In this document: positions 1 through 61,143 of the stretch, one piece after another
Numbering within the stretch: position 1 is the stretch's first letter
Layout of the letters: each line of letters starts with the position of its first letter
Assembly: GCA_044892505.1 (NCBI GenBank)
Contig: CM097882.1
Span: 543,492,001-543,556,000, forward strand
Source of the DNA: Schmidtea nova
Lineage: Eukaryota
DNA: 64,000 nt
Direction of reading: 5' to 3'
The notes under the pieces: model-generated
Database searches by the model: none
Seen by the model: the letters and a program-made list of their open reading frames with translations, nothing else
Told to the model about the DNA's origin: nothing
Translations under genes and position numbers: made by a program

Positions 1-666
1 ATAAGTTAGAAATATACAAAAAATAAAAATAATTAAATAAACAAACATAATTCAAGCTCCAATTAAACTTTATTTAAATAAAACAAATCTATGTGTATTT
101 TGTTGAATAGTAAATGGTTAGCAAAAAGTATTGCAGCGGGAAAATAAATCACTACTTTGTATCAATAATAAATCATTCAACTAAAATTCTTTTTAAATGC
201 TATTAAATCATGTACCAATACAGATATTTTATCTGAAAGTTTTAATTAAATCAGCCTCTAAGATTTGTATCAGAATTTTGAAAAAAAAATATTATTTGAT
301 GGATTTTTTTTCACACCACAGTATACTGAGTTCATAAAAATCAATAAATTTCAACTAGTTTATTATTAATTGAAAATTAATATTATTAAGAAAATAAAAA
401 AAAACAAATAATAAAACAAACCATTAGAGAAGAATTTGACTGCGGTTTTGCATTGTCATCTTTGTAACTCGTAATAGTAGTCAACTGAAAATAATTCACT
501 TTCCATNNNNNNNNNNNNNNNNNNNNNNNNNNNNNNNNNNNNNNNNNNNNNNNNNNNNNNNNNNNNNNNNNNNNNNNNNNNNNNNNNNNNNNNNNNNNNN
601 NNNNNNNNNNNNNNNNNNNNNNNNNNNNNNNNNNNNNNNNNNNNNNNNNNNNNNNNNNNNNNNNNG

Positions 667-824
667 ATGACTAAAGATCAAAATTTTTTTTATAAACAAT
701 AACACAATATTTCGGCACGGCCTTTATCAAGTGTGTATTTGAAATTTTGATCTATAGTCATCATTATGGGAATTATTGATAATAATAATAAAAAAAGATC
801 AAAGGTGAAAAAAGATAATTATGA

Positions 825-830
<6 letters not shown>
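667..830. mobile_element. Dispersed palindromic repeat (Penelope-like pLTR / retrozyme-like family), copy A
   Basis: Shares ttgatctatagtcat..attatg..aattattgat..aaagatcaaaggtgaaa..aagataattatgat with loci at 1773, 17921/18361, 25800, 33605, 42560 and 49313. Arms gatgactaaagatcaaaattt and aaattttgatctatagtcatc are inverted around a hammerhead-like core. Confidence 0.7.
702..734 (-). ncRNA. Minimal type I hammerhead ribozyme-like motif, U3-A8 variant (most intact copy)
   Basis: Minus strand reads ACAC-UUGAUAA-A-GGC CGU GCC-GAAA-UAUU-GUGU: stem I ACAC/GUGU, core UUGAUAA, stem II GGC/GCC, GAAA, self-complementary AUAU stem III. Predicted cleavage between 706 and 705. Confidence 0.65.

Positions 831-856
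<26 letters not shown>
825..856. repeat. (ATT)n microsatellite
   Basis: Direct reading. Confidence 0.95.
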
Positions 857-1772
857 GATATTAAATATGACAAAACTTCAGAATAAATATTGATATTTGA
901 TTACGGTTTAAGAAACACAATAGAAGATTAATCCATAATTTAATTTAATTAATATTATATCATTTATTAAATTAGTCAAGTATATTAATTAACACCTTTA
1001 TTGCCCTAGAATAACACGTAATTCCTGATAATTATTAATTTTTACGACCATAATATCTATCTGACTCATTAGTCAGTTCAAATATAGACGTAAATATCAG
1101 AATAAATATGAAAAAATACTCTAAAATAGTTGCAGGGCGTCAGCAAATTATGTTTTAACATTGAATATGTTAAATTAAATAGTTTATTTAACTAGATCCC
1201 TACAGTAAACATTATATTTGATTTTAGATTCAGTTATGCGAAGAATCATATTCTAAAATCTAGATGAAAACGGCAATATTAAAATACTAGTGTATTCAAA
1301 ATAATTGCAGCATAGATGTTGCAAAAGAAGATCAGATATTTCCAACACTAAATTGGTCTTCGTGATTACCTGATCTAAATATTATGAAAAATGTATGTAA
1401 CATTATTTCTAACCAAATTTATGTTATGGGACACAATAAAATTAAATAGACTTAGAAACAAATAATCAAGCGTCTAGAATGTAAATAAACACGAGCATGT
1501 AAAATGTTTCCTAGGAATTTTATAATGACTTCAGAACAAGTTAAATTGAAACATTGAAATAGAAGGGAAACTCATAAAACCGACGTTTTAAAAATATCAA
1601 GTATGAATGTATAAAAAGAATTCGCCTTTTAAGTCTCATAAATAATTTATCTGTTTCAAAATAAGTTATTAAAATTTTTTAATAAATACTTTGTTGAAGC
1701 ATAGTTTGATAAAATGTGTAATTTATATAAATTACACAAATGTAAAATAGTTATTTTTACACAAATGTAAAA

Positions 1773-2035
1773 TATTTATATCAATAATTTTCATAATTGT
1801 ATGATTTGATCAAAAAAATTTTTATTTTGGTCTTTGGTTGTTAAGTTCACAATATTTCGGCACAGCCTTTAATAATGTGTGTATTGGTGATGGTTGATAA
1901 AGACTATGCCGAAATATCGTTTACTTAACTACCAAAAACCAAAATAAATTTTTTTGATCTATAGTCATACAATTATGAAAATTATTGATATAAATCAAAA
2001 TAGATCAAAGGTGAAACCAAAATATAATTATGATT
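1773..2035. mobile_element. Same repeat family, copy B; ~110-bp inverted arms with two decayed hammerhead-like cores back to back
   Basis: 1773-1875 is the reverse complement of 1894-1995. Plus-strand core TTGATAA-AGAC TAT GCC-GAAA-TATC at 1894-1918. Confidence 0.75.
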
Positions 2036-5687: not shown

Positions 5688-6065
5688 CTATATCGAAATG
5701 CTAGATAAAAACTTCCAATTTGGACTAACATTTTGCAATTCTGCTTTCAATTCCTGGAGATCAAGCCCCGGCTGAGATGGATTTGTGTTTGATATAAAAG
5801 AATCTTGTGCCACTTCACAGGTTTCGTATAATTTGGGAATGATTCGCTCCTTGCTGTTTGCTGGTTCAAAGGGAAGAATATTATAATTTCTTGATAAATG
5901 ATCTGTAGATCTGTATTTACAACTTTTCTTACGATGATGAACGTTGCTGTGCATGCTTGCACCGGAATTTGAACATGACTTAGTAGGATATGGTGAGCCA
6001 CCCCGACTAGACGGGGCACTGGCAAACATTGATGCACGAGGTGACCCAGAATCAATATAGCCACT
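5688..6065 (-). CDS. Terminal coding exon, Ser/Pro-rich (SGYIDSGSPRASMFASAPSSRGGSP...SSISI-stop); probably the last exon of the SIK3-like gene
   Basis: Polypyrimidine acceptor ttttatatttttaag before 6065, open frame in phase 0 to TAG at 5688, GC content above the flanks. Assignment to SIK is inference from strand and composition. Confidence 0.6.
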   Translation of the reverse strand, partial: SGYIDSGSPRASMFASAPSSRGGSPYPTKSCSNSGASMHSNVHHRKKSCKYRSTDHLSRNYNILPFEPANSKERIIPKLYETCEVAQDSFISNTNPSQPGLDLQELKAELQNVSPNWKFLSSISI

Positions 6066-6667
6066 CTTAAAAATATAAAATAATATATTAATAATAATAA
6101 TAGAAATAATAGAAAAATTAATATGAAAATTATTGAATTAAAAAAAAAGAATAAACTTGAAACCAAAAGATAACGAAGATAATAATAATAATAAAATAAA
6201 TAAATATTAATTGAAATAATTAAGTTATTAATAAATAATATTTTTTTCATTTTCATTTCATTTAGTTTAGAAAGTCTTTAATAACATAAATTAATAAGTA
6301 TTATTATAAGTATTTAGGTACCCCTCATTGAACTTAATATTCATAATTTCCATAAGTCTTGAAATTAATAGAATAAACGGAATTTAATTTGATAAATGAT
6401 ACACAAAAGTAAATGTCAGAAATGCTAAATGTTCAGTTTACTGAAACAGACAAGTGATTCATTTAATGAAAAATTTTCAAGTTGGATAAACAAAACGAAA
6501 AATGTTTCTAGATTCCAAAGTAATACGCTTGAAAAAATACAATACAAAATTTACACAGAATTTAAATACAAAGCATTTTTGTTTCGGTCAATAGATTCTA
6601 AATTCTTTTCTCCAAAAAAATAAATAATATTTTTTGACGTGTTTGACATGCTGTAGAATAAAGACCA

Positions 6668-8338: not shown

Positions 8339-10260
8339 CTAGGGGACCGAATTTCGCTCGGAGAAAAGAAAAATAGTTTTTTAATCTCTTTCGCAAAACA
8401 ACTTTAATTTTATTTAACTTTATTCGGCTGAGACAAAAATCGATTTGTCGAGGTAACTGTCGTCGCTGTCACTATCAAGACTTATCGAAGTTTCATTAGA
8501 AGCATTCAATTCTTCTTTCCACACAAAATTATACATGCGACGTTCATTTTCAGGTGGTAACAGAACTTTCAAGGTATTTTGTCGTTTAACACGGGAAAAT
8601 GCTACATACAACATACCGTGATTAAGACAGGTGTACGAAGGTCGACGCCAACAAATTCGAACGTTTTCCCTTGAGATTTATGCACGGTCATCGCAAACGC
8701 TGGTCGAAGCGGAAATTGATGTCGTTGTATTATACATCCAAGTTGGCCTTTAATGGAGTCGAGCTTAACTCGAGGAATGTATACTTCTTGTCAAGGTTTT
8801 TCCCCAATAATTATTTTTGCTTTAACTACGTTGTTTTTATAATTCGGTAACAATCAGGCGTGTTCCATTGCACATACCCTCCGAAATATATAAATTACGC
8901 ATTAGCATAATAATCGTATTTTTCTTTAGTTTTAATTAATGGGATAGCAAATCAGCAATTTCAATCGAATTAAGAAGTTCTGGCATGAATTCAATAACTC
9001 TTTCCTGTTTATCCTTCACAGAATCATGACTTTTATACGATTTGTATTCTCCAGGGAGACGATCGATAATACCTGTCTTCTTTGTTCAGCGGCGGGAGAA
9101 TAACACGTTTCTTCATTCCATCGTAATTTTGATTCGCAAGGCAATTTTCAAATACTTCTTCGATTAAATTGCTATTCGAAATTATATCCTCATGTAATTC
9201 GATTTCATTTAAGTCATTTTTTGGAAGATTTCCATTCCCCAGTTTCAGGATATACTTTGCGAATGCTTCCTGTTCAGGATCGACCCGCATTATTTTTAAC
9301 AAAATACTTTTGAAATACTTCCAGAGATGACTTTTTTTGATCGACAAATCGAGTGTTTCACTACAGTTGCTTCGGAGTTGAACAGGTAAGCACTGACGGA
9401 AATCATCTCCAGTGACTAAAATTTACCCTCTAAATGGCAAGTTTGGATTTGCAATAGACTTCTACAACTGATCCAGATTTTTGTAAACCATACTTTGGTA
9501 ACATTGGTGCCTCATCCATAAGGAAAACATCAACCTGAGCGAGTTCTGTAGCTTTGACTGAACCAGGTATAATGCTGGAAATTGAATCTGACGTAAGCGG
9601 AACTTTCAGACCAAATGTCTTGTGTGATCTTTGTCCAGCAGGCAATAGATTTGATGCGATTCTAGTAAATGCCATATATTTTACTTTGCGATTTCGCCCA
9701 CAAAGTAAGTGATACAAGGTCTTATTCACGAAGGTTTTACAGGTACCGCCTGGTCCATCTATGAAAAAAACATTCTGTTTCAACATAGTTAGAGTCATTG
9801 GCTGCACGTAAAATACTGTCCACAATTTCAATTTGTTTCCCTTGCAGAAGCCAATACATGCGTTCTCCAGTAGCAGCCGACTCATCAGAATTTAAAACAT
9901 CCATGTTTTGGTTATCTTCGCAATAGTCAATGTCATCCATACCATATTGTTCCACACAGAATCGACAATCAAATTAAATTGCAATTTTCTTTTTAAAATA
10001 TTTAGCACAGACACTTCAGCAAAATTTATTATAACTATTCCAAGTATTTGTGACGTCATTCATATGAAAAATGTTTTTCCAAAATTAAGGCCCTAAACGA
10101 ATTTTCCAAAAGTTGTGACCAATTTAGATCATTTTTACACCGGAAAATGGAAGTATGCCAATTTTCAGGAAAAAAATTATAGTGCCGTTTTCGAGAAAAA
10201 ATTTACAGATGAATAAATAAATATACATATATACAATTATTGCTCGTTTAATAATATAGA
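8339..10260 (-). mobile_element. Internally deleted Helitron with both termini; decayed PIF1-like helicase
   Basis: 5' A|TCTATATTATTAAACGAGCAA at 10260; 3' hairpin ccga-gcgaaat-tcgg (8347-8361) then CTAG|T at 8339. Helicase motifs FFIDGPGGTCKT, FLMDEAPM, GDDFRQCLPV, QFPLRPAFAMTVHKSQG and LYVAFSRV, broken by frameshifts. Confidence 0.9.
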
Positions 10261-11990: not shown

Positions 11991-13705
11991 TAATCAAGAT
12001 AGAAAAAGATTTTAACAAAAAAGTTGATTATATACTTCATTCAAAATTATCCGGGCAAGAATGAAAAATTCAGAATTATAGATCAATGATTGGCTGCTTG
12101 TATACAGATGCAGAAAAACTAGCTACACGTGGCTCATATTAATCAATAATGTGTGGGACTATAGGTAGGCATACGAGTGGTATTTAGTCAGTCAGTTATC
12201 ATATTTAATTTACAGCTTCTGCTGCCAGCCTGACATACAAGCTGCTCCTGTGATTTTGAATTGAATAGTATCTAGCATCTTATACTTACTACTGCTATAG
12301 GAAATTTAAAAAAGCTAATAGAAACTAGATGTGATTTTGATGTTCAGACAGTCAACTAATCATTTCATGATATATTGGTCAACTAAAGGCCTGTTTGATT
12401 GTCCTTTATTTTAGCTATCATGGAGCCGGTGGGCCGGTCTCGACCAGAAGGTCGTAAGTTGAGTAAGCCTGCTCTAAACTTATTGTGCTTATTCAATGCG
12501 AATTTTGTCAACACACACACACACTTGTTGATAGGTTAGTTTTTTTATTTATTATTAAATTTCATGTTTTAATGTTTTTTAGAGTTTTATTAATTGAATG
12601 TAGGTACTTGTTTATGTAGTTGTTTAAACCAGTTAGATATTGACATCCAAGGAAGAGACACTTTTAATCATGCATTAAAAGCTTAAAAAATAATAAATAT
12701 GATCAGTAAATTGTCACTAAAAATTATATCTTAAATAAAACAAACTAAATTGCAAAATATATTTATGGTCAATTAGGTGATGCAATAGTTTTCAAATCAT
12801 TTGGAATTCATAGCACCATAGGCGATAATCAAATTTCTTCATAGTGCTAAGAGCATGCAAATATTTATAAAAATATTAATTTTATAATAGTCTCACTAGA
12901 ACACAAGATAAATAAAAAATACCGTAAAATCTCAAGAATAATGCACAAAATCTTTACTCGTGTTATCCAGATAAGGTTAGGATCAGTACAAAAATGTCAT
13001 TTTCAATATAGAATACGCTCACACGCCACCATGAAACACTCATACAATTTCAGATATTTTCATTTTTTTAAGACAAGACCTAAATTATTTCATGGGAACA
13101 CGAATTTTCATCTATTGTCAAAAAAATAGAAAATATCTGAAATTGAAAAAAATAAATCAATACAATCTTTTTCTTTTCAAAATCTTAAGGACACTACGTA
13201 AAACACGCGCATTATAGTCAAGATTTTACGGTAAATGTAAACATGATTATCTCATGCACATACTAGTAAATATTGTTTTTATTTCATTTACCTTGTAATA
13301 TTCGGGCACCATGGCGCACAGTTTGAAAACCTCCATCTTAATCAATAAAAATTATTTATTGCCTCCAAATTTGTTTTTAAAATTTTGGAATATGAATAAC
13401 AATTTCTAAAGTTACTTGATCAGTAAAAATAAAAATTTTAACTTTCTAACGCAATTTACCATGTAGATAAATCATTTCTATATTCACTCTACTATAAGCA
13501 AAGTGTATAAGCTGGATAAGTATAAATAAATCCGGATGTATATATTTGTATTCATCTATCAAGCTGTTCAGTGCATTTTGCCTCGAATGCTCTACACATT
13601 TCTCTGCTAATAGCAGATTCGAATTAGAAATGGTATATAATAATATTCAGTATGGGGTAAAAGGTAAAAGGTAAAAGTTAAAAGTTAAAAGGTAAAAGAG
13701 AAGAA

Positions 13706-14329
13706 TAAATGCCTCATATATATTATATAAACTAGTAATAAAAGTTCCATTTCTATTGGCAGAAAGAGAAAGATTAACGAGGAATGTGAAATTTAGATCT
13801 GTTATTTAAATCTGATGTTGGTGGAAGAAAGTCATTATCTTTACGTCTAATGCATAGGTCAACATCTGTGTCTAATTCTTCAAGTAAGTAATATGGTTTC
13901 TTGGGTACTGGAATTGAATCTGAGTGTGGTATTGGACAAGAAAAAAATTGAACATTTCAATATGATGTATTTCAAATTCTAGTGGCAATAAGAAAAGATT
14001 AACGCCTCATGTCAGATTAAATGCCTCATATATATTATATAAACTAGTAATAAAAGTTCCATTTCTATTGGCAGAAAGAGAAAGATTAACGAGGAATGTG
14101 AAATTTAGATCTGTTATTTAAATCTGATGTTGGTGGAAGAAAGTCATTATCTTTACGTCTAATGCATAGGTCAACATCTGTGTCTAATTCTTCAAGTAAG
14201 TAATATGGTTTCTTGGGTACTGGAATTGAATCTGAGTGTGGTATTGGACAAGAAAAAAATTGAACATTTCAATATGATGTATTTCAAATTCTAGTGGCAA
14301 TAAGAAAAGATTAACGCCTCATGTCAGAT
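13706..14329. repeat. Tandem direct duplication, 2 x 312 bp, preceded by a short (GGTAAAA)n array
   Basis: Units start at 13706 and 14018 and look identical by eye. Confidence 0.9.
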
Positions 14330-15589
14330 TATATGAATATTATGGGGTAGCTAGTATTTAACCAATTTCTAAGTCGATAATAAGAGCTACTGCAACAATA
14401 TTGCATCACCGAGTAGCCCCATCTACTTTTGTATCAAAACAAGCAGCATAAAGTTTTTGAATATGGTTAATAATTGTACGTTGTTTCATTATTTTGCAGA
14501 TACTAGCCACATATATAACAAAAGTTGTTCCTATCATTCTTACAATTGCGACTAGATGAAGTTACCATTTTATGTCAATCTACAATAAAAAAGGTATACA
14601 ATCACACTATGGACCAAAATGTAATTTAATTTAACTTAATTCAAAATTCTTTCTAGCAGGTGATAAATAAATTATACATATTAACTATGGACAGAATTGA
14701 TTCCAACACATTGCTAGTTATATTAACATACATTAAAAAAGCAACATAAGTAAATACAGATGGTAAACACAAAAAGACATCAAAAGGCTAACACCACAAA
14801 CCAAAAAAGTGCAATTTACATAAACACCACAAGTTAAAGAGATAAAAAAGTGCATTTTCAAAAGTTTCGTAAACTTTTAGGTTCCATTCATGCATTACAT
14901 TGCGTGTAAAAATATTGCTGATTGTGAAATCACATAATATCTGTAGATGTATTGTATCCAAAATTCGATAAAATGAATGGCAGAAAACTTGTTAATCTTT
15001 GTCAACAGGAAAGATGTAATGTTTCACCAATATAAAGCGCATCGCCACACCGAAATCAACATTCAAGAGAAGAGTAATTTGGAAAAAATGATTCATTCAA
15101 CACATTTGCATGAATACAATTATCATATAAATATGAAAAAAAATATTTTAATGGGAAATATGCTAATAAATTTAGGCGATATTAACAAATCTCTGATCAA
15201 CATCTTTCAAGATTAAGTCCAGAGAACTTTCAAAAAGAAAATTAGACATTTGATAAAAAAGATAATAAATTGCTGTTGCGATTAACCGGAAATATATTAC
15301 TGATAAAAGCTAACAGTTTTTATTTGAAGTTTTCAAAATTGTAAAAACCAACATAACTTATGCGACATTTCAAAATAAAAATATTTAATATTCGTTAGTT
15401 TTTTTCAATCTCTACGAGGTTATTCTAGATTATTTACTACTAGTGACCTTAATTCAAAAACAAAAAGTTTATTTAATAATTAAAAGTAATAATAATAAAA
15501 TTAATAATAATTGTTTGCAATGTATTTTTCCATTTTTAGGAAATTATTTTTCGGTATTTTTTTTAAAAAACACCGCTCGACAATGATGT

Positions 15590-16700: not shown

Positions 16701-17920
16701 GGAGGCCGGTCAATTAGATACCTAACTCAGGTGTTCGGGGTAACAAACCTGTTATTTACACATCTTCTGGACTTTTATTGTAACTCATGTAATTTTTTTC
16801 TCGATCGTTAACGTTTTTGTTCTGATTGGTTAGACATTAATTCATAAGAGAAAAAAAGAAGGGCAATCGACAAGTAAAAAAGTTGATGAGAAAGTCAATC
16901 AAATTTTCAGTCACTTCAATTTAATCAAAGTTGAAGATCACTCAAACTTTAATAAATAAAAAATATAGTTCAAGTTATTGTTTCTATTTATTATTTTATA
17001 TTCGTGACTGGGTCACACAAGTCTGATTACGTTTGTGGGGGGGGCATTGGTGAAAAGTTTTTAGAATCAAGAGGGCGGTGGCTCCTATATGTTTGGAAAT
17101 CACTGGTTAAACTGTTAAATATTTTTATTTTAATGTATATTTGCAAAGGTTGTTAAATAATAAATCTTAAAGCCTCAAAAAATTTGTTTAAAAACATTAT
17201 ATTATGAAATACCTTTTTTATATTTGGACTTATCTTATTATAACGAACTTAAAATGAAAAAAAACCGAATGCAATTCTAACACAAATAAAAAAGACTGGA
17301 TCAAATTTGTTTTTTATAGCACACAAATAAAGAAAGGCTGCACAGAATACTCGTGTGCTATAAAACAATTTTGAGTCTTTATATAAAAAAAAATTATATT
17401 ATTGCCTATCAATACCAAATTTTGGACTATGGGTTTAACATAAATTTTGTCAATTAGTTAAATATTCATTTAACATGTAAAACACATTGGAGAATTCTAA
17501 TTAACATCAAGCAACTTACAATGGTAATCAATTGCAAAGGCGATAATCTCGTTTCATAAATTTCCATTTATTAAATATTTCCCATTTTCCAAATTACTAT
17601 ATTAAAATTAACATTTTTTCTTTGAAATTTCTTCTATCCTCAGCAGATTTTTTTAAATTGAAAATATTATTGATTATTTTCTTATTTCATTAAAAACAAT
17701 TGTTGAAATTTTTGCAAATTTACCTTAGAAATTTCATTTTATATTTTCAATTATTTATTTATTAGTGTTTTTTGTTAATAAAAATAAGTTTCATTTTTAA
17801 TTATTTCAACAATTTAGATTAAAATTTTAAAATCAAGTTTGAATTTTACATTTGTGTCCGAATACGTAAAATACTTACAGTGGAATTATTTCTATTGAAA
17901 TAAGAATAATAATTTTTATA

Positions 17921-18500
17921 ACATAATTATCTTTTGGTTACACCTTTGATCTCTTTTTATTTATATCAATAATTTTTATACTTGTATGACTATAGACCAA
18001 AAATGTTTTTGGAGATTTTTGACCAAGATATTTCGGCACATCCTTTATCAAGTGTGTATTTCAATCGTTAATTTAATGATTGAAAATGATTTTGAATTTA
18101 GAATATAAAATATAAGTTTGACCGGAAAGTTTCTGCAGTCACATTGATCAATGAATATATATTTAACAAAGACAAATAATTTTATGAAGCAAATTAATCA
18201 TCCATATCATCGAGGAACTCAAAATAGTTTCCACCATGCTGGATGCAACGTTGCCAACGTGCAGGGAGCTTGTTAATTCATTAATTAATGCATCTTGAAT
18301 GGCATTAATTTTTCTAACTGCAGAAACTTTCTGGTCAAACCTGTAAATAATTAATTTTCTTATTTAGGATTAAGTTAATATAACGATTGAAATACAAACT
18401 TGATAAAGGCTGTGCCAAAATATCGTGTACTTACCAGTCAAAAAATCTCAAAAAAAATTTTGATCTATAGTCATACAATTATGAATATTGCTGATATAAA
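17921..18500. mobile_element. Same repeat family, copies C (-) and D (+) as an inverted pair
   Basis: Minus core acacacTTGATAAAGGATGTGCCGAAATATC at ~18027-18056; plus core TTGATAAAGGCTGTGCCAAAATATCGTGTAC at 18400-18430 (G12 lost). Confidence 0.75.
18113..18343. mobile_element. Tc1/mariner-type MITE
   Basis: ~27-bp TIR (t/c)a(a/g)gtttgacc(g/a)gaaagtttctgcagt with TA on both sides. Confidence 0.85.
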
Positions 18501-20438
18501 TAATTTTTATACTATTTATATTGACAGTGCATAAAATTTGCATTTAGAATCTTTTTTAATCTATTGTCATAAAAATAAAACATAAAATGAATCAAATTTA
18601 GATTATTTTACTGGATCTTGTGAATTTAAAGTTCTTAATTTGTTGATTGTAAGGAATGAATAAGAATTATTAAAATTCAGCCGCAGTTCTAACGATATAA
18701 ATTATTTCAAAATTAATAATTTACTAATTTTTTTGTATTTTCCTTCATTTAACGAGTTACACTCAATTATTATTACTGAAATTAATCAACATAATGAAAA
18801 CGGGAACTGATAGTGATAAGTTGAATAATAATTAATTATTAAATTAAAATTTTATGTGATGAAAACATTAATCTTGAGCAATGTAATTACGTATATTATC
18901 TCAATAAAATGATAAAATGGGAAAAATGTGTTTAATATAAGTACTTCCCTTTAGACAGCTAAGTTTTTCAAATGAAGGAAATGCAAATTCAATAAATTAA
19001 AATATATTCTACAATCAAAATTTCCCAAATGCAATTTTTAAAAAATAAATGAAAATAATATCGAATAAATAATAAATAATCTACGTCGATTTCAATATTT
19101 TGTTTAAATAAATGCTTTTAAAGGTTCACTCGAGTTACACTGACACTTTTGATAAACATAAATTTTTTACGAATTATTAATCTCATAAAAGTACATATAT
19201 TTAATTTATGATTTCTTTCCCGAGATTCCTACAGTCACAAACAGAATTATGGAAATTGATGATAACGATTTTGTCAGTGGAGATTCACTGAGAGAACTCA
19301 CGATTTCATACCTACAATAAAGGGAGAACTGAAGAAATCTGGAGAAACAATCATATTAAATTAACTATCATTGCCTACTGTTTACTAACACGCTTTTCTC
19401 ACAATTTATCAAATTTAATTAACGTAATAATTTACAATAAAATAAATGAAAAAAGCATTAATTCATGAAAGCATATAATTCGCCATTTGCGGTGAAAATC
19501 TCTCGATAAAATAATGTGAAAATACATTATATTATCTATAATACCTTAATTGCAACAAATTTTAAAATTGAAATGAAATAAAAATTTATTGACTATTGCA
19601 TAATGCTGCAAATTATTTTTTAGAGAATTTTCAGTTATAACATAATACTTATATAAAACTAATATTGACTGCCCTTCTTTCAAGTAAAAATTTAAAAATA
19701 AAAATATCGTATAAAACAAATAAAAAACATAATTATCCAAATTATTTTTTTTGTGAATTTTGCCTTATTTTAAATACAACCTATTTTATGTTCTTACAGT
19801 ATAATAATTCATTGCTATGCAAAACAGCACAAGTCCCATAGTTTGGTGACTGAAAAGGTGAATAAAATTTGTTAAATCTTTCTTTCAAATGTTAGCAACT
19901 TAAATTTTCTCCATTATTTTCGATTTTTACAATGCTATTTGTGACTATCAGTTGATAATATAAAGTAACAGCGATTCAGTTTCACTGAATTATTTTTTGA
20001 AACTTTTGTTTTATAGCCCAATATAACATCTATAAGCAGTAGAATAATTTCAAAAAACTATTACACTCATTTATGGATTTTTTCTTATTTATGGATTTTT
20101 ACTTATATATCACCAGTCTTAGAAAATAAGTCAACATATTTAGAAGGGCCATCAAACGTATTCTGTAAAGGCGCTCCTGGACATAATTACAATCCGAAGT
20201 ATGACTTCTGGCAATAGAGTAATACAATTTCAATTTTCCAGACATTATTAGTGATATTGTTAAACTTCCAATAAGCTATTGGATTAAGCAGTTTAAGTTG
20301 ACTATAATAATGATTAGTTGACTAAATATTTATTTAAGAGGCGAATCTTTTCTTCTTCAGCAACTGCTTCTGTTGAATCTACTTGTTCAGTTTCTTCAAC
20401 CGCTGCAATCTCAGCCACTTTTTAGATTTTACCAACAA

Positions 20439-20554
20439 AGTTATGAAATGTGTCAATATTAAAATAATAATAATATTGTTTTAATATTAACAAGTAAAAA
20501 AGTTGAGCATTGTTTTTAAATATAATTTGCATTATGAGTGAACAGACTTTTACT
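20439..20554 (+). repeat. 5' LTR (116 bp)
   Basis: Differs from the 3' LTR by 3 substitutions and one AAT indel by my count. Confidence 0.95.
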
Positions 20555-21523
20555 GGCGACCACGCAAAGGTGGAAACAATTCAAGCAGTTACAAGGCAAC
20601 AACGGAAACTCATCTTAGAGTCACTTCCGAAACAAGCACGAGATATCCTGAATTTTAATGTCAGGAAATTCAATGGAAGAAATACAGCAGAAGCAGAACT
20701 GTGGATGAAAGATATCGAAGATTGGCTTATGATGAACGAGTTGAGTCTAGTAAGCATTTTTGATTTATTATTGTCAGAAGAAGCTGGTATATTATGGAAG
20801 GATTATAAAATTCCAAATATTACCGATAAAGAGGCAAAAGAATGGTTAAGTGACACATTCACAAAGAAAAAGTCGATCACTGATAGAATATGTGATTTAG
20901 CAAGAGTTGAACAAGAAAAAAATGAAAAATTTGCAACTTTTGAAATTAGAGTAAAAAAATTACTTGATGATATCTTCGATTGTGGATTATCCAGAGAAGA
21001 AATTGTGAGAAATATTGTTACCAATAGGGTCCACAATGAACGGTTAAAGGAAAATTTTGTTTCTAATACCAAAATGTCAAGAGAAGAAATGCGAACATTA
21101 GCAAAGGTATTTGAATCAAACGATATCACGGAAAGAAACGTGCGTATTGAAGAAATTCAAGCAGTGGATAGAAGGTCATATGCAAATGCGGTTCGAGAAC
21201 GAAATACTCAGTGGGAGCGTAAAAGCAAACCAAAAGCAATAGTTCAAAATAACAGAGTATTTGAACCAAACCATCAGCGCAATATAACATATCAAGATAA
21301 ACAATTTAATAGTAGTAAACCTATATCAGAAGATCAGAGAGACAGAAAAACGAATGAATATGAAGAAAGAAGACAATTACCAACCGTATCGATGAAGCAT
21401 ATTGCACGGAGACTTTATAATAGATGTTGTGGATTGCCAGAGCCGAAAGAAGAGAAGTTGAAACCAGGCCAGTGTTTCTGTTGCGGTGAGAGCAATCATT
21501 TACGATTTCAGTGTCCTTTATAA
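20534..21523 (+). pseudogene. Gypsy gag; CCHC knuckle CFCCGESNHLRFQC, with a second knuckle CLICDKTGHTFRDC in frame just after a premature TAA
   Basis: ORF track plus hand translation past the stop at 21521-21523. Confidence 0.85.
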
Positions 21524-21770
21524 GATAGATGCTTGATTTGTGACAAAACCGGACACACGTTTAGAGACTGCCATGTAATTAAGAAGAATTTCGAAAGGAA
21601 ACAACACCAAGTATATTGAATACACGATGAAGAACAAGATGATTCAGAAATAATTAATGAACCCTTTTTACATGATGTAGAGTATCAAAAAAAAACCAAC
21701 GCAACACTGTCGTACACATTTCGTCGGTGGGGTCGAGTCAATAGGACAATCAAGAAATCGAAATGGAGTT

Positions 21771-24700
21771 ATGAAGGATGTGATGTATATGAAGGAAGAT
21801 GGTAGGAATTGGAGTAGAATTATTCTAAATGAAGTAGAAGTTGATATTTTGTGGGATTCTGGTGCGTCAATTAGCGTAATAAGTGAAGATTATTGGAAAC
21901 GTATTGGTTGTCCACCATTGATAAGTAGCAAAATAGTTTTGAGTGGTGTGTTTTCGAAAGAAAACGAAATGCCATTAGGAAGTATAAAGGTTAATGCGAA
22001 ATGAAACAAAAGGTCTAAAAATCTTGATATTGTTGTTGTGAAGAAGATATGTCCAGATTTTATAGGCGGTGTTGACACCATGAAGCAGTTCGGTCTAGAA
22101 TTGAAAGAGGTAAATAATTTTGAAGCTTCGTTAACAAAATTAACATTCACAAATGAAGAGAGAAGAGATAAGGCTCTACAATATATTAAATGCGAGAATA
22201 GTTCATCACTAGGTAAAATTATTTCAGACTTTAGCGATATTTTCATGGCATCGCGATTCGATCTTGGCCATACACGTTTAATAGAACACGAAATAAAAAC
22301 AACAGGACCACCGATATTACAGAATCCACGCAGACAACCAATTGGAGGCAGGCGTTATTAGAAGATGCCAGAGTCCTTGGAATTCACCTTTAGTGATTGT
22401 TGGAAAGAAGGATGGTTCGATCCGCATGTGTTTTGATTTTCGAAGATTGAATTCAGAAACGGAAAAATTTTCGTTTCCAATGCCCGATATGCAGTTATTA
22501 CTGGATTGTTTAAGTAAATCAAAGATATTTACAGCAATTGATCTAGGACAAGCGTATTACCAAGTCGAATTGCAGAAGGATTCACAAAATAAGACGGCGT
22601 TTAGTACTAAGGAAGGACAATTCTGTTTTAATCGTCAACTTTTCAAAGATTAATGCATAAAATACTGGAAGGGCTTATTTTCAAAGGAGTTGTTGTATAT
22701 CTGGATGATATACTAGTTTACGCAGAAAATCAAATTGATCACGATAAACTGTTGTTGGAGGTATTAACACGGATAAGAAACACAGGCTTGAGAATTAACC
22801 CGGAAAAGTGCTCGTTCAATAAGGTGGAAATCAACTTTATTGGTCATACAGTCAGTGGTGAAGGTGTTCAGACAAATAAGAAAAAAATAAACGAAATTGA
22901 AAATGCAGCAGTACCAGAATGTGTATCACAACTCAGGGCGTTTTTAGGACTCACAAACTATTACCGTCGATTTATAAAAAATTATACAAAGATTGCAGCA
23001 CCGTTATACGCAGCAACATCAGGTGGTGAAAAGAAAGTTATATGGTCAGAAGAATGTAACATTAGTTTTAATAACTTAAAGAAGACGTTATGTGAAGCAC
23101 CGATTTTAGAATTTCCGAGATCAGATCGAAAGTTTATCATTGATACAGATGCAAGTTTCGGAGCTGTAGGAGCAGTATTAAGCCAGATTAATGAAGAAGG
23201 CAGGGAAGTCATCATAGTATACGCATCAAGACATCTGACGACTCACGAAATGGGTTATTGTGTAACAAGAAAAGAATTATTAGCAGCCCATGAGTTCATT
23301 GTATATTTCAAACAGTATTTATATGGTAAAGAATTCGTCGCAAGAACCGATCACAAAGCTTTAACATTCATGAAGGACACAAAGAAGCCAATTAGCCCTC
23401 AATTACAAACTTGGATAGCTAATTTGTCGGAGTATAATTTCGAGTTACAGTACAGAAAAGGAGAAGATCATGGAAATGCTGATGGCTTATCTAGAATAAA
23501 AAATAACTTGTGCAGTCAATTCCAAACGAAACATAAGGACGCAAAAGAAAAAAATCGAAGATAAGATATATAAACAGTTTACAAGAAAATCCAAATATTT
23601 TAGAAATTATCAGAGTTAAGCAATTGGAAGACGCAAATTTAAGAGAACTTATAAAATATTTGAAAGATGAGATTGGTCAGGTTCCAAACTTTGTGGAACA
23701 AAGTTATTTTTTTCAAACATATAAAAGAACTGCAGATAAACGAACGGTTGTTATCAATGGAAATAGCTAACAAAATAGTTGTTATAGTTCCAGAGAAATA
23801 CACGGAAACATTGGTTAATTTTTTGCATAGGAATTATGTCAATTAGGTAGCAAGAAAACGGGAAGTTATATGAAAGATTTTTTTATTGGCCTAATATGAA
23901 TCAGGATATCAAAGAGATTATCAATAAATGCCAAATTTGTGCCAAGAGGAAAATAGAACAAGGAAGAACAAAGGAGATTTTATTACCAAGAACAGGGGAA
24001 CGATTCCTTCAGCAGATCATTGTTGACGTTGCGTATATGGAAAAGACGAAAGGGAATAAGAAATATGTGATTGTAATTATAGATAGATTTAGTAAACTTG
24101 TGAGTTTAACGGCAACTTCAAAACAAGACGAAAACACAATCGTTAATGTAATTTTGAATAACTGGATATACCGATATGGAAAGCCAGAAAGCATACTGAT
24201 AGATAGAGGTCGGGTTTTTGAAGGAACAATATGTCGAGAATGGATGAACAAGTTTGGGATAAAGCAAGAGTTTAGTTCACCTTACCAACATCAATCTAAT
24301 GGTTTGGCAGAACGTACTATAAGAACAGTTAGAGATATGATGAGTACATCTTTGAAAGGAGAACGTAATGAGAATAACTGGGCCGAGATATTACCGAGAA
24401 TTGAATTTTATCTCAATGCGACGAAACAAAGTACAACAAATTTCTCACCTTTTGAAATAGTCTACGGTAGGAAAATTAATTTGTTTTCTAATCCAGGATA
24501 TGTACTGCAAATGAAAGATGAGGTACTACATACGACAAAATCAAATTTAAATAAAGCCGCTACTTCTATGCAAGAAAGAGACATAAACAAACGAGGAACA
24601 AGGCTCTTCAAGGTGGGAGAGAAAGTATTAGTAAGAATTGAGCCAAACAAACGAAAAAAAAATGGCGAACAGTACGAAGGAGCTTTTGAAATTTTAAAAT

Positions 24701-24807
24701 TCTTGTCACCAAGACAAGTAGCACTACAATTCAAAAACTCAGTAGAAGACGAGACGAATCGAATGGTTGAAGAGATGGAAATCAAATCGAAGAGGGGAAA
24801 GTTATGA
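21771..24807 (+). pseudogene. Gypsy pol (protease, RT, RNase H, integrase), several frameshifts and stops
   Basis: LWDSGAS; FDFRRLN..VYLDDILV; IDTDAS..TDHKAL..NADGLSR; CQIC..IVDVAYM..IDRGRVF..SNGLAERTIR; YEGAFEI (GPY/F-like). Confidence 0.9.
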
Positions 24808-24912: not shown

Positions 24913-26128
24913 AACAATAATAGCTATTTCGTTATACATGTTTGAGAAAAAGAATAATATAAATAAATAAATTTTCTTTAATTTATATTTAAATTAAATT
25001 GTAATTATTTTGATTAACTATAATTTTTAAATTGTTATATATTAACAACAAAAGTGTGATCAGCACAATTACTTTTCAAATGCATCCGTATTCGAAATAA
25101 CTCTATTAGTATCAAAAGGTTCTGACATTTAGAACAACTTTAAAAAAAAATAAAATTAGAAAACTTCAAAAGTGAAAATTTTCTGCAAAAATCATTTAAA
25201 TCAGCAGTTTATAACGAAAAGTGCACTAAACTTTATAGATTAAATATACAAAATCTATAAATTCAAATTATTTTCGACAATACCTAATAAAACCAAAACA
25301 ATTAATACAAAATCGGTACAACTGGCTCGGACCAACTGACAATACGGCACCGACCACAGATCGGGAACCTTTGGCAAAAATGATTAGATTTAGATTTCAT
25401 ATCTCTAATATCTCTAATCTTAAATATAATGATTTTAATTCTAAAATGTATTTAATTCAATCGTCCAGTTTATATTCAAATAATAATACTGTGACCTCAA
25501 TTAGGTCCAAAATTCCTTAAAAAAATTTATACTCGATTTTTAATTCAATTTCATAACATTTCTTTTTGAACTATTTTTAATAATTTATTAAATAAGACTA
25601 ATTACGAAAAGGTTTATAGAATAAATCCCAAAGACAAGTGAAAAATATTATATGTGAAAAACGATACATGACTTAATAAATACTAAATTGGATTTTTTTC
25701 CAAACTCATTATTTCAAATAGACGTACAATTTTGTATTATTTCTTGATGGAATATGCTAAAAATGTAAACACTCTTGGAAATGAATGTGCTGCTAAAACA
25801 AATTTGATCTAGTCATATAAAAAATAAAAATTAATTTTTGAAATTAAAAAGAGATCAAAGGTGAAGAAAATAAAATATATAAATGAAATCAAAATAATTA
25901 TTTAACTATACTCACCATCAAATTTCTTATTTTTTCCATAATTTTNNNNNNNNNNNNNNNNNNNNNNNNNNNNNNNNNNNNNNNNNNNNNNNNNNNNNNN
26001 NNNNNNNNNNNNNNNNNNNNNNNNNNNNNNNNNNNNNNNNNNNNNNNNNNNNNNNNNNNNNNNNNNNNNNNNNNNNNNNNNNNNNNNNNNNNNNNNNNNN
26101 NNNNNNNNNNNNNNNNNNNNNNNNNNNN

Positions 26129-26548
26129 TGATAAGCCTTTCTCCGCAATGTTAATTTTTGATGAAATATTACGATCTTAAAAAGATCCTGATCACTTCAA
26201 TACGAAATTCTTCCCAATATACTTATATCTTTATTCTGAATATTTTCTTTTTCCTGAATTATGATTAACTTAAACAAATTGAGACTCGTTTTTAATATAA
26301 ATTAAAATTATAATTGATTACAAATAAAAATTTTCTATAAAAAAATTCCTTATGAATTTAAAGTTTCTAATAAAATGCTTTTTTATAAATACGTATCTCT
26401 AAAATAAATCTGAATCAAAATTTAAAGGAAAGAAAATATTCGGATAAAAGTGAAAAGTCAATTAGAAAGAATTTCATATATAAGTGATCAGGATTTTTTT
26501 AAGATTGAAATATTTCATCGAAATAAATCTTACCGAGAAAGGCTTATT
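26129..26548. mobile_element. Degenerate foldback/MITE with ~150-bp inverted arms; a third arm at 4897-5075
   Basis: ataagcctttctccg..gatgaaatat..aaaaagatcctgatcactt vs aagtgatcaggattttt..atatttcatc..cgagaaaggcttat. Confidence 0.65.
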
Positions 26549-26966
26549 ACTTTTACGTTTATTATTATATTATATTAATCGCTGATAAAGACAAAAGTAT
26601 TGTAGAAATTTGTAAAAAATTAATCATTTAAAATTAAATTTTGAATTGATTTTTAATATATTAAAATTATATTTTGAAATAATATTTAAAAATTTAAAAT
26701 CTTAATCAAATTATGTTTTAAAATTTGTTTCAAAAAATTGAATTTCACATAGTTTTTTGACACCCGAAGACAGCAGTCTTTCAAATATAAAGAACGGGTG
26801 TTATATAAATGGCGTTTTTCATAAATTAAATNNNNNNNNNNNNNNNNNNNNNNNNNNNNNNNNNNNNNNNNNNNNNNNNNNNNNNNNNNNNNNNNNNNNN
26901 NNNNNNNNNNNNNNNNNNNNNNNNNNNNNNNNNNNNNNNNNNNNNNNNNNNNNNNNNNNNNNNNNN

Positions 26967-27242
26967 TTTATGCCAAAGAGACATTTGAGAATCTTCCGAT
27001 CCCCTTCTATTACCCATTGGACTATCAGAGTAATTAGATTGATTAAATTTAGTCTCCAAGCAAGAATTAAATCTGGCCTCCTCGTTATAAAGTGTATGTT
27101 GAATATTATAAGATCCATTCATTGGTAAACTGAAGCGTTTAAGATGCAAACCCATGAATTCTAGAGGAGATATTTCATTGATATAATTTTCTTTAGTTGA
27201 TGGAACCATCTGTTTAACAACAGCATCATAAAGAAATTCATT
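26967..27242 (-). CDS. SIK3: SIK3-like kinase, exon e (runs into gap)
   Basis: Acceptor tttgtttag; phase 0, NEFLYDAVVKQMVPST..KRFSLP..RRGSED; matches phase 0 of exon d across a 59-bp intron. Confidence 0.75.
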
Positions 27243-31458: not shown

Positions 31459-31580
31459 CACAACGAACTTATCGACTTAATTATATAATTTATATATCGT
31501 ATAGCAGTAATTAGATAAATGAATTATTATTAGCATGATTATGATTATTATTATTACATCAAAATAAAACAAATTATTAC

Positions 31581-32470: not shown

Positions 32471-33604
32471 GTATTAATTAAACATTAATTTTACACCGAA
32501 TATTACAACATATGTCATTTAAGTCACCGGACAACCTTTTGAGTGTAAAGCATTTTCATTATTTTCATCAATAAGAGAAATTAAAATTGAAACCTTGATA
32601 TATTCTCATTTCAATCCCCTCTTATTAATCACTTAATAATAATAGGAACCCTTCCACATTTATTTGAAAGCTTAACTTATGTAATTTATTTATTATTAAA
32701 GAAAAAGCAATTTTTCACTACATATTTTGATAAATTAACTAATATTTTAACTATGTCTCTAAATAAAATGCATATTATACAATAAACAATAATCATGTAA
32801 TTGGGTCTGTAAAATAAAACCAAGAAAAAAATCCATAAAAAACCTATTATTAAAAATTTTTTTCAAGTGCTCATTTGAAACATTGGTTTTAGGATTTAGG
32901 ATTTAGAATTAAGTATTGATTTATGACATTATCACATACGAGTCAATTTCTATAGTTTAATAATCCAAGAAATCTCTCCATCATTTTTAAACGCAATTTC
33001 TGTACCTAAAACTTTTAACATTATGAATTGATACGGATGAGTATTTCGACCATTTTATTAAGAAATAAAAGAGGTGGATTTTGTAGGTTACACAGTAAAT
33101 CGTAATATATTTTCAAAATTCCAAGGGATGTTATAATTTGCTATAAATAAATCGGCGTCAGTGATATTTGAGTTGAGATGTCTATTTCCTAGACTCAATA
33201 GAATTATGTTATCACAGTTTCTTCCACGAATATAAACTCAGAATAAGAAACTTGACAGCTATGGAGAAGATAAGAAAATCATTACAGAGGTATTTAAAGT
33301 TAAATTTTATGCTTGGCTAGCGCTAATTTTCAAGGTTGATGAATTTCAATTTTAAGATTGTAATGCAATTACGGTTAAAAACATTTAAAAATTATATTGT
33401 TAAAAAATAAATACTTCCCAGTTTTATCAATCATTCTTATTTCTAATAGTTTAATAGTTAAAATAATAAAGAACATGAATAAAATTTATATAGTTTTGAT
33501 TATATAAAAAAGGTTTCTATAAAACTTTATTAAATATACAAAATTAAACTGCTCTTTTATGACATTATTTAAACAACTATTAATATGATTTATACTAGTT
33601 AACA

Positions 33605-33905
33605 TTAATATCAATAATTATCATAATGGTAAGACTAAAGATCATTTTTTTAAACAAGTATAATATTTCGGCACAATCGAATATTTTATCACTCGTTATT
33701 TTATAAAATATAAAATAAACAATTAAGGTTAATATTTAGGATTAAGTTAATATAACGATTGAAATACACATTTGATAAGGGATGTGCCAAAATATTGTGT
33801 ACTTGTTTAAAAAAAATTTGATCTATAGTCTTACCATTATGGAAATTCTTGATATTAATAAAAAGAGATGAAAGGTGAAACAAAAAGATAATTATGATAT
33901 TATTT
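33605..33905. mobile_element. Same palindromic repeat family, copy F
   Basis: Partial minus core aatatttcggcaca at 33662; decayed plus core TTTGATAAGGGATGTGCCAAAATATTGTGTAC at ~33771-33802; family tail to 33905. Confidence 0.7.
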
Positions 33906-41370: not shown

Positions 41371-42559
41371 GATAAATTGTCAAAGGAGAAAAAGAAATAT
41401 TTAGACTAATTAGTTGTCACTTTCATTGTTTTTCCGGATGATAACTGTTGTTATTTATTTGAAAGGACATAAGCAAACTTTGTATTTGTCAGGGATGTTT
41501 GGGTCATATTGTTTTGTATTTAACAACTTTAACATTTACTTACTGGCGAAGAATAAGATCAGAAACCACTGCTTAAAGTAGTATTTCTTTTGTGAGAAAA
41601 GTAAATAGGAAGGTTCATTGTAATTCCAAACAAAATCAATAAATATTTTATCTATTCTCATTGTCAATTTCTTTTATCTTCATTTCTTTTCGTACTATAA
41701 ATTGATCTATAATTTTTAAAGAAATAAAATAATAGTTAGGGTGAAAGATCATTTAGCTATGACTATAATAAAATTGACGGGTACTAAATTTAATTAACAA
41801 GAATCCTTTTATAGAAAATTGAAATTAAAATTAATTAAATAAAAATTATCCTCTATATCGAAGTTCAAGTAAGAAAAGAAATGAAAAAGGATTAATTTAA
41901 AAAGATCGGGAAAGATATCAAAACCAGATAAGACTTAAAGGGATACATGAAAATATTCAGTTTATATCAAAATATTCGGAATTTCATATATATCCATTTC
42001 TACCAAAAGCGACAAAATGACTGGTTCTCAGATAAGCATTATATATTTTACAGTTAATCACAAGTAATAGACAATTTAGACTGGGCAATAAAACATAAAA
42101 TATCTTTTATGCAATAATTATAAAACATTTATTTAAAGTTCTAAAAAGCGGTCATTTGACTGCTTTGGTATACTTAGTGTTAAATGGCTGATATAAAGAT
42201 AAAATATGTTTTAATAAATCAAAAAATGTATCTATTTCATCAAAATAATACTTGTTTTATTAAAATTTTTAAATAGTCTGTAAAGAACACACTGGACACT
42301 CTTCTATTAGCTTTCCACATTTTTATTAAACCCGTTTAATAATATTGTTGTTTATTCGCCTCTAGCTTTTATAGATACAATTTAAATGTATAACATAAAA
42401 TCTACAATCATATGTTATAAAAAATTTAATAAAAACAAAATAAAAATAATAAAAATATAATTTCATGAGATATGTCCTTCGGCAGTCGTTTGTTGAAAAT
42501 ATTTAGAAGCAAATGGCCGACACTGTAAAACGTAAAAGAAAAAAAAGAACATAACAATT

Positions 42560-42735
42560 TTTTAAGTATGCGATATTTCGGCACAGCCTTTATCTTGTAC
42601 ACTTGATAAAGGCTGTGCCGAAATACCGGATACCTAAAAAATATTTTGGTCTAATCTTACAAAAATTAATGTGAAAATTATTGAATTAAAAAAAAGATCA
42701 ATGGTGAAACCAAAAAATAATTTATGATAAAAAAG
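42560..42735. mobile_element. Same palindromic repeat family, copy G; perfect 20-bp inverted hammerhead-like cores
   Basis: atttcggcacagcctttatc-ttgtacactt-gataaaggctgtgccgaaat at 42575-42624. Confidence 0.75.
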
Positions 42736-44608: not shown

Positions 44609-44720
44609 AATTAATTAATAAGTAACAAAATAAGCCTTTGCTGCAAAAGTAATTTTATTAAGTGAGAAAATTATTTTTGCAGCAAAGGCTTATTTTGTTA
44701 CTTATTTATTAATTAATTTA
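44609..44720. repeat. ~50-bp-arm hairpin; a single arm recurs at ~57160-57225
   Basis: ataagtaacaaaataagcctttgctgcaaaa / ttttgcagcaaaggcttattttgttacttat. Confidence 0.8.
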
Positions 44721-49200: not shown

Positions 49201-49312
49201 AACATTTATTGTACATTTTGTACAGATCACTAACTGTTCTGTATCTTATTTATTAATAAAAGTTGCTTAGTTATTACTATTAATCTTTTGAATAAAGCTA
49301 AAAAACATTAAT

Positions 49313-49460
49313 ATCACTAATTCCATTATGGTAAGACTAAAGATCAAAATTTCTTTAAATATTGTGCACTTAAAGAAATTTTGATCTTACCATTATGGGA
49401 ATTAGTGATATTAATATTAAAAAAAGATCAAAGGTGAAACAAAAAGATAATTATGCTAAA
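49313..49460. mobile_element. Same repeat family, copy H; hairpin whose loop is only the predicted cleavage-site segment
   Basis: tcactaattccattatggtaagactaaagatcaaaatttctttaa-atattgtgcac-ttaaagaaattttgatcttaccattatgggaattagtga. Confidence 0.7.
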
Positions 49461-61140: not shown

Positions 61141-61143
61141 AAT

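What the first reader, a model, noticed from the sequence alone, without database searches (positions are those of the whole stretch)
702..734. Variant minimal hammerhead ribozyme (U3-A8, loop-less stem III) as a high-copy dispersed repeat
Seen: about nine complete or partial copies of ACAC-TTGATAA-A-GGC(T/C)GTGCC-GAAA-TAT(C/T)-GTGT at eight loci in 64 kb. Known: the hammerhead core is C3UGANG8A..GAAA..NUH with a C3-G8 pair that tolerates U3-A8; an extra base after A9 occurs naturally; Penelope-like elements carry minimal hammerheads with palindromic stem III that cleave as dimers (Cervera and de la Pena 2014; Lunse et al. 2017). Inferred: positions 3 and 8 co-vary here (U3-A8), stem I (ACAC/GUGU) places cleavage after AUC/AUU, and stem III is only AUAU with no loop, so folding must be intermolecular. 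This would be an extreme, dimer-only ribozyme family spread through the genome, including the introns of a host gene.
Basis: partly seen in the sequence, partly recalled or inferred. Interest (0 to 1): 0.8.

Follow-up and report, generated by a model that had tools for sequence, protein, structure and literature searches.

The report
Minimal hammerhead of a Penelope retrotransposon
This repeat is the terminal-repeat hammerhead motif of a very abundant Penelope-type jumping gene in a likely planarian genome, a kind of small RNA already described that likely cuts itself only slowly, in pairs or with protein help.

Summary
The motif is real: minus strand of 702-734, 43,116 exact genomic matches against 0 for the control. 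It is not a free-standing ribozyme family. It is the hammerhead motif in the pseudo-LTR of a Penelope-like retrotransposon (865-aa RT + GIY-YIG ORF, about 2.76-kb unit, one motif per unit), closely related to the known planarian PNL2_SM. The window copies are 5'-truncated, often head-to-head stubs, and only 1 of 8 near-complete copies is intact. Each 'extreme' feature is already in Cervera and de la Pena 2014: loop-less AUAU stem III, extra base after A9, U3-A8, U17, 3-bp stem II. Stem I covaries across eight hammerhead families of this genome. Inside this family U3-A8 is fixed, so there is no real covariation. Cleavage is untested. Stub 5' ends cluster 4-14 nt upstream of the core, with no clear peak at the predicted cut, so the copied RNA was mostly uncut. 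This scan noted the same clustering before, on other DNA of this genome (e1-9996638). Verdict: new member of a known kind, low interest.

The parts
702..734 (-). Minimal type I hammerhead motif (stem I 4 bp, U3-A8 core, extra A after A9, 3-bp stem II, palindromic AUAU without loop, U17); predicted cut between 706 and 705
666..740 (-). 5'-truncated stub of the PLE pseudo-LTR carrying the motif; its 5' end is about 10 nt upstream of U3; it runs into an N stretch
   Evidence: profile hit starts at 740, reference position 4483
741..825 (+). Head-to-head partner stub without the motif; holds the first 20 codons of the PLE ORF (766-825) and ends at the family's common 3' end
825..856 (+). (TAT)n microsatellite at the insertion end, typical of this family
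1769..2034 (.). Head-to-head pair of stubs, both motifs decayed (1852-1879 -, 1890-1917 +)
17907..18075 (-). Stub with the motif at 18028-18055; stems I and II broken
18344..18504 (+). Stub with the motif at 18396-18423; G12 changed to A
33604..33903 (.). Head-to-head pair: partial motif on the - strand near 33670; decayed motif 33768-33795 on the + strand
42559..42729 (.). Head-to-head pair with overlapping motifs (42573-42600 -, 42599-42626 +), both incomplete or changed
49307..49458 (.). Head-to-head pair truncated inside the motif; only its last bases remain
25803..25884 (+). Decayed 3' stub of the same element without the motif

Best explanation
The motif sits once in each pseudo-LTR of a Penelope-like retrotransposon (RT plus GIY-YIG endonuclease), the window copies are short truncated and inverted stubs of that element, and the motif likely acts as a slow hammerhead that would cut only when two motifs share their AUAU palindromes or when the element's protein helps it fold. 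Shown: intact units of about 2.76 kb run motif - 865-aa ORF - motif in direct orientation, with U3 about 65 nt upstream of the ATG and about 100 nt downstream of the stop. Copies end about 60 nt inside the ORF at AT-rich microsatellites, and many are head-to-head pairs with variable centres. Inferred: the RNA likely starts about 10 nt upstream of the core. Reverse transcription likely starts inside the ORF, as shown for the anole element PAc, and copies back through the uncut motif, which would make the roughly 140-nt stubs. In tandem read-through RNA two motifs would pair through AUAU and cut after AUU/AUC, releasing unit-length RNA. Solo stubs are likely inert passengers that decay neutrally.
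For: ORF with RT and GIY-YIG directly upstream of the motif; Pfam GIY-YIG above its cut-off, RVT_1 E 9e-5 but below its cut-off. All 150 scored N-terminal matches are 92-100% identical to the query (its own locus included), and about 70 of them (counted by eye) lie in open frames of 860 aa or more. Motif-ORF-motif or tandem layout in most of 14 fetched loci. Common 3' end plus microsatellite. 44 of the first 100 listed exact matches form head-to-head pairs less than about 65 nt apart (counted by eye). The EN region matches PNL2_SM at 39 of 50 residues, compared by eye with Fig. S2 of PMC8557442. About 19,900 C3-G8 minimal-hammerhead matches against 700 control; where an ORF was seen next to them they lie about 100-145 nt past the EN region or stop. 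Stem I pairs only with its own partner across 8 families: sum 28, reached by 2 of 40,320 permutations, mean 8.9. Across subfamilies here and in contigs of two organisms the block changes mainly at position 17 (C/U), while sequence diverges right after stem I. U3-A8 is natural and was reported active in vitro. The PAc hammerhead is protein-assisted and RT starts inside the ORF.
Against: No cleavage data for this motif. No compensatory change in stems I or II inside the family: variants are unpaired single changes. About 35 nt upstream of the motif is nearly as conserved between subfamilies, so conservation is not specific to the ribozyme. A propagated variant (about 8% of contig depth in run X2) breaks the outer stem I pair. 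The hammerhead dimer is far from the lowest-energy two-strand fold (-7.6 vs -18.9 kcal/mol; nearest-neighbour energies ignore the core), and is weaker than in four sister families (-11.4 to -18.4). Only 9 of 200 short copies start within 2 nt of the predicted cut, against 99 of 200 at 4-14 nt upstream of U3. Published minimal PLE hammerheads cleave poorly even as dimers. The stem I permutation test uses related families (C and H look related) and representatives that had been found with a hammerhead pattern.
Confidence: 0.8

Rival explanations
1. The motif is the same PLE pseudo-LTR hammerhead but is catalytically dead or nearly so, and is kept for another job (promoter or initiator region, protein-binding site, or 5' UTR structure).
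For: It combines U3-A8, a 3-bp stem II, a 4-bp A/U-only shared stem III and U17. Copies were made through the uncut site and their 5' ends show no clear peak at the cut. Upstream flank is also conserved. Hammerhead mutants did not affect PAc insertion in vitro, and no RNA-seq ends were found at its cut site. Naiad PLEs thrive without canonical hammerheads.
Against: All core positions, the 3-8 pair, G10.1-C11.1, the palindrome and NUH are kept in the intact young copies. G12 variants are only 1,417 against 43,116 and similar in number to C11.1 variants (985), so no large G12A lineage propagated.
Confidence: 0.3
2. An autonomous 'dimer-only' ribozyme family or retrozyme spreading as its own small element.
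For: Very high copy number; most copies are short and lack the ORF.
Against: Short copies have variable 5' ends and one common 3' end about 60 nt inside the PLE ORF, which marks them as truncation products. I saw no short tandem unit of the motif; direct repeats come at the full 2.76-kb period.
Confidence: 0.04
3. The motif is the terminal or subterminal inverted repeat of a DNA transposon (MITE or foldback element), and the hammerhead likeness is chance.
For: Many copies are palindromic pairs.
Against: Arms are unequal with variable centres, extend into an RT-EN ORF and end in microsatellites. Inverted 5'-truncated copies are described as typical of PLEs. Target duplications were not scored because the microsatellite flanks obscure them.
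Confidence: 0.01

Closest known systems
Minimal hammerheads (min-HHR) of metazoan Penelope-like elements, including the U3-A8 variant of Schistosoma mansoni Cercyon (Cervera and de la Pena 2014, PMC4209133)
   Same: Type I topology in the pseudo-LTR; no loop III, palindromic 15.2-16.2; extra base between 9 and 10.1; G10.1-C11.1; short stem I; U3-A8 (about 1,300 hits in S. mansoni; entry S. mansoni(3) has the same 8-nt 5' core); U17 common; single and opposite-strand copies from truncated PLEs.
   Different: Stem II is 3 bp with a 3-nt loop (7-8 bp in the main S. mansoni families, though 3 bp occurs in the C. briggsae entry). No row of Fig. S3 combines U3-A8, 3-bp stem II and AUAU. Copy number is far higher (43,116 exact).
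PNL2_SM, a PLE listed after the Nematis rows in Fig. S2 of Craig et al. 2021 (PMC8557442 supplement); reading SM as Schmidtea mediterranea and its Repbase origin are recalled
   Same: EN linker and GIY-YIG core 39 of 50 residues identical (by eye), same shortened cysteine linker, CCHH-type residues kept.
   Different: A related family, not the same sequence. I could not see the PNL2_SM nucleotide sequence, so whether it has the same hammerhead is unknown.
Poseidon element PAc of Anolis carolinensis (Frangieh et al. 2024, PMC11167929)
   Same: Tandem pLTR-ORF layout, insertion ends inside the ORF start, AT-rich targets, hammerhead in the pLTR.
   Different: PAc has C3-G8 and its cut site lies 26 nt inside the ORF. 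Here the predicted cut is about 40 nt upstream of the ATG, and the element is of another clade.
Hydra clade PLEs (Craig et al. 2021)
   Same: DKT in place of DKG, CxCx5C linker, length under 3 kb, AT-microsatellite targets.
   Different: This protein keeps the CxxC..H..H residues of the EN and I saw no RWK motif. Hydra hammerheads have C3-G8 and a real 3-4 bp stem III (File S2). Not filed as Hydra.

Membership tests
Endonuclease-positive Penelope-like element | Single ORF with RT and C-terminal GIY-YIG endonuclease | tested here: met
   865-aa ORF; Pfam GIY-YIG 27.6 bits above cut-off, RVT_1 E 9e-5 below cut-off; 146 homologues with RT and GIY-YIG families
Endonuclease-positive Penelope-like element | Pseudo-LTRs from tandem or partial tandem copies, inverted 5'-truncated copies, tail into the ORF start | tested here: met
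PLE minimal hammerhead (Cervera and de la Pena 2014) | Located in the pseudo-LTR, sense to the ORF | tested here: met
PLE minimal hammerhead (Cervera and de la Pena 2014) | Core (C/U)UGAN(G/A)A ... GAAA ... UH with a Watson-Crick 3-8 pair, extra base after A9, G10.1-C11.1 | tested here: met
PLE minimal hammerhead (Cervera and de la Pena 2014) | Palindromic 15.1-16.1 segment with no or tiny loop III | tested here: met
   AUAU
PLE minimal hammerhead (Cervera and de la Pena 2014) | Covariation in stems | tested here: inconclusive
   Met across 8 families for stem I (2 of 40,320 permutations), weak for the first 3 pairs of stem II (1,104 of 40,320); not seen inside this family
PLE minimal hammerhead (Cervera and de la Pena 2014) | Self-cleavage (low, as dimer or protein-assisted) | not testable with these tools
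   Needs an in vitro assay or RNA-end data; the genomic 5'-end proxy showed no clear peak at the cut
Hydra clade PLE | DKT motif and CxCx5C linker | tested here: met
Hydra clade PLE | [quoted passage not shown] | tested here: not met
   CxxC inside the GIY-YIG core and two downstream His kept; no RWK seen
Nematis clade PLE | Cys-rich linker plus CCHH; grouping with Nematis RTs | tested here: inconclusive
   Linker is shortened. FastTree puts P0001 in a 19-row clade inside a larger group with Haemonchus proteins, apart from the DKG-type families of this genome; no named Nematis reference was in the tree. PNL2_SM is listed beside Nematis.
Non-LTR retrozyme | Short non-coding tandem unit with a hammerhead in each repeat | tested here: not met
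   Repeat period is the full coding unit; short copies are solo or inverted
TIR DNA transposon / MITE | Fixed terminal inverted repeats around a constant interior | tested here: not met
   Variable centres, unequal arms, continuation into an RT ORF

The most novel reading that the evidence does not exclude
This family carries one of the most stripped-down natural hammerheads (U3-A8, 3-bp stem II, AUAU-only shared stem III). Its recent burst went with a shift from C17 to U17: C17 is in 2 of the first 100 unmutated matches but 21 of the first 100 G12-mutated, older-enriched matches. Weakening of the ribozyme may have been selected because reverse transcription has to pass through the uncut site. 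A cut would remove a roughly 35-nt capped leader or split tandem RNA. The motif would then be a tuned brake on transposition, and this very young family a direct test of what PLE hammerheads are for.
Probability: 0.12. Interest if true: 0.55.

Novelty: new member of a known kind. Interest (0 to 1): 0.2.

Why it matters
As it stands the finding is ordinary: PLE pseudo-LTR hammerheads with these features have been known since 2014. Its use is as material. The role of PLE hammerheads is still open (poor cleavage in vitro, not needed for insertion in the one reconstituted system). This family offers tens of thousands of insertion records, many intact near-identical masters, age-ordered subfamilies differing at position 17, and C3-G8 sister families in the same genome for side-by-side assays.

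Tried and rejected
Rfam scan: no hammerhead match; only weak miRNA-hairpin scores on palindromes. Search for a relic C3-G8 subfamily: 4 matches and 4 (3 shared, with old-type flanks; one match is a junction artefact). About 0.2 doubles are expected if single changes were independent (my estimate, assuming about 40,000 copies and the base mix of the first 100 listed). This is suggestive but confounded by copy age, so I do not count it as covariation. Search for other U3-A8 families with a different stem II: 2,019 matches against 191 control; most of the first 100 listed are single-change copies of this family. Idea of a propagated G12A subfamily, raised by a biased query: rejected by genome-wide counts. 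Peak of 5' ends at the cut site: not found; 9 of 200 within 2 nt against a background of about 1 per nt, and junctions there are ambiguous because stem I is self-complementary. RNA evidence: no RNA holder listed, which says nothing about expression. Lunse et al. 2017 and Przybilski and Hammann 2007 were not held; I saw them only as cited in PMC6765202 and PMC3088659. The maximum-likelihood tree did not finish; only a FastTree on 35 rows is used. Paper searches for planarian + Penelope + hammerhead, hammerhead + U3-A8, PNL2 + Penelope and planarian + Penelope + Schmidtea listed no paper on this family's hammerhead; subscription papers and Repbase were not searched. The sequence look-up in earlier findings returned nothing.

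Full report
Observation. The window holds 8 near-complete copies and 2 partial ones at 6 loci. Only the 702-734 copy passes a strict descriptor: 1 hit, against a mean of 0.02 in 100 shuffles. The others have core or stem changes or truncations. The genome (G000, 1.25 Gb) has 43,116 exact matches to a 25-letter pattern and 0 to the reversed control.

The motif is part of a longer repeat. Copies share a 3' end about 110 nt downstream of the motif, usually followed by an AT-rich microsatellite, while their 5' ends vary. Longer copies continue upstream into a reading frame with RT and GIY-YIG motifs. A protein search with an N-terminal piece gave 2,863 candidates. The 150 scored are 92-100% identical to the query, and about 70 (by eye) lie in open frames of 860 aa or more. 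In 14 loci fetched around such hits, the layout is motif - 865-aa ORF - motif, often in tandem at about 2.76 kb, often with an inverted truncated copy at the 5' side. The common 3' end lies about 60 nt inside the ORF; window 766-825 encodes its first 20 residues. This is the standard Penelope-like element (PLE) anatomy described in PMC8557442 (passages, section 11 and supplement parts read) and PMC3846280 (passages). It rules out a DNA-transposon TIR.

Which PLE. The EN linker and core match PNL2_SM in Fig. S2 of PMC8557442 at 39 of 50 residues by eye. The protein has DKT and a CxCx5C linker like the Hydra clade but keeps the CCHH-type residues, so it is not Hydra. A FastTree of 35 proteins places it with unnamed 35-51% relatives, in a larger group with Haemonchus proteins and apart from the DKG-type families of this genome. 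The clade is left as Nematis-related, inconclusive. The host is a flatworm by its kinase (named hits are cestodes and Schistosoma), probably a planarian: sister family E resembles the published Schmidtea mediterranea hammerhead with its flanks, and family B resembles Perere_Smed.

Is it a hammerhead? Position and core say it is the homologue. A canonical-core pattern gives 19,921 matches against 700 control. These fall into several families with C3-G8, an extra base after A9, 6-bp stems II and a 6-nt palindrome. Where an ORF was seen next to them, they sit about 100-145 nt past the EN region or stop. Over 8 families, one representative each, stem I pairs with its own partner far better than with others (28; reached by 2 of 40,320 permutations). 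The first three pairs of stem II are less distinctive (1,104 of 40,320; family H did not parse). The representatives were found with hammerhead patterns and some families are related, so this is supportive, not a clean probability.

Inside the family there is no compensatory change. Single variants number 1,417 (G12), 985 (C11.1), 208 (U3) and 158 (A8), a spread that fits G/C-to-A/T-biased decay of dead copies. C3-G8 doubles number 3-4. Among 105 aligned copies there are at least three subfamilies; they differ right after stem I and at position 17 (C in old, U in young) but not elsewhere in the core. Contigs of two coded organisms show the same boundary after stem I (one study, contigs only). 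Against this, the upstream flank is similarly conserved, and a variant that breaks the outer stem I pair has spread.

Is it novel? PMC4209133 (main-text parts 1-2 of 4 and supplement parts 1-2 of 3 read) defines the minimal hammerhead with no helix III loop and reports the extra base. It also reports U3-A8 in S. mansoni Cercyon elements (about 1,300 hits). Its Fig. S3 lists loop-less AUAU with C, U or A at 17, a 3-bp stem II, and the same 8-nt 5' core as here. U3-A8 was already known in nature and reported active in vitro (PMC3088659 passages). I could not read Lunse et al. 2017; a review's passages state that PLE hammerheads likely act as dimers and are slow (PMC6765202). What I did not find in print is this exact combination in this family. 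Supplement file 1 of PMC4209133 could not be searched, and the PMC8557442 supplement was cut; either may bear on this. From the 2026 retrozyme preprint I read part 1 of 5 only.

Mechanism. For the anole PLE PAc, reverse transcription starts inside the ORF, the hammerhead cuts only with protein, and hammerhead mutants still insert (PMC11167929, parts 1-2 of 4 read). The same geometry holds here by inference: a copy that contains the motif and the tail must have been made through an uncut or re-ligated site. In an unbiased 864-kb sample, 14 of 35 short copies start 4-14 nt upstream of U3 and 2 of 35 start within 2 nt of the predicted cut. In all loci held (partly selected for the motif; two window-overlapping loci left out) the numbers are 99 of 200 and 9 of 200. 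The cluster is most simply the RNA 5' end, which is inferred, not shown. Two motifs in the same orientation occur on one strand only in full or tandem units: 4 pairs at 2.76 kb among the first 100 matches, against 22 head-to-head pairs, which cannot partner each other from one strand (by eye). In folding calculations stems I and II form in the monomer, but the hammerhead dimer is not the lowest-energy two-strand state and is weaker than in four sister families. A slow, conditional ribozyme is my best reading; I put roughly even odds on measurable cleavage and 0.3 on an effectively dead motif.

Host gene. A SIK-like kinase exon (39065-40804, minus) ends at a GT donor that is phase-compatible with an AG acceptor at the next exon-like frame near 31965. 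That would put the 33604-33903 pair in an intron. There is no transcript support, and these copies are decayed. At about one exact copy per 29 kb, intronic copies are expected by chance.

Verdict. Real, explained and of a known kind: the pseudo-LTR minimal hammerhead of a PNL2_SM-related PLE. Interest 0.2.

Noticed in passing
G000, e.g. L115, L126, L128, L142, L036, L012, L132: At least seven other minimal-hammerhead families with C3-G8 and 6-nt palindromes (about 19,900 pattern matches). Families B and D are DKG-type PLEs; family B has 2.70-kb tandem arrays and an 899-aa frame in L143.
   Followed up: partly
L109, L110, L111 (1501-1524): Three old-type copies of this family carry the canonical C3-G8 pair, more than independent single changes predict (about 0.2); possibly relics or reversions.
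   Followed up: partly
window 39065-40804, 31477-31968, 26826-27242, 5688-6137 (minus strand): SIK-like kinase exon (Pkinase, weak UBA_SIK3) and further exon-like frames that may belong to one long gene.
   Followed up: partly
window 20507-24807 (+) and 59047-61153 (+): Two decayed LTR-retrotransposon-like remnants (gag, protease, RT and integrase-like frames), judged from the translations only.
   Followed up: no
window 60979-63261 (+): Frames with zinc-finger-like motifs and the start of a non-LTR-type RT, judged from the translation only.
   Followed up: no
window 9033-9891 (-) and 45997-46814 (+): PIF1-like helicase fragments (Helitron-like) and a pogo/Tigger-like transposase fragment, judged from the translations only.
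   Followed up: no
window 43864-44102, 44591-44732, 26156-26523, 45058-45452: Other long inverted repeats (66-119-nt arms), unrelated to this motif; they may be MITEs or stubs of other PLE families.
   Followed up: no
window 13702-14335: Near-perfect tandem duplication of 312 bp.
   Followed up: no
window 57518-57604 (-): Short fragment similar to the GIY-YIG region of P0001 (48% over 29 aa, E 0.002), probably another PLE remnant.
   Followed up: no
L062:4300-8052 and L063:7109-9001: Frames resembling protein-primed DNA polymerase B (Polinton-like) next to PLE insertions, judged from the translations only.
   Followed up: no
L094:1889-9989: A tandem array in which the start of the ORF is replaced by an in-frame (AAT)n stretch, still giving 866-aa open frames.
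   Followed up: no
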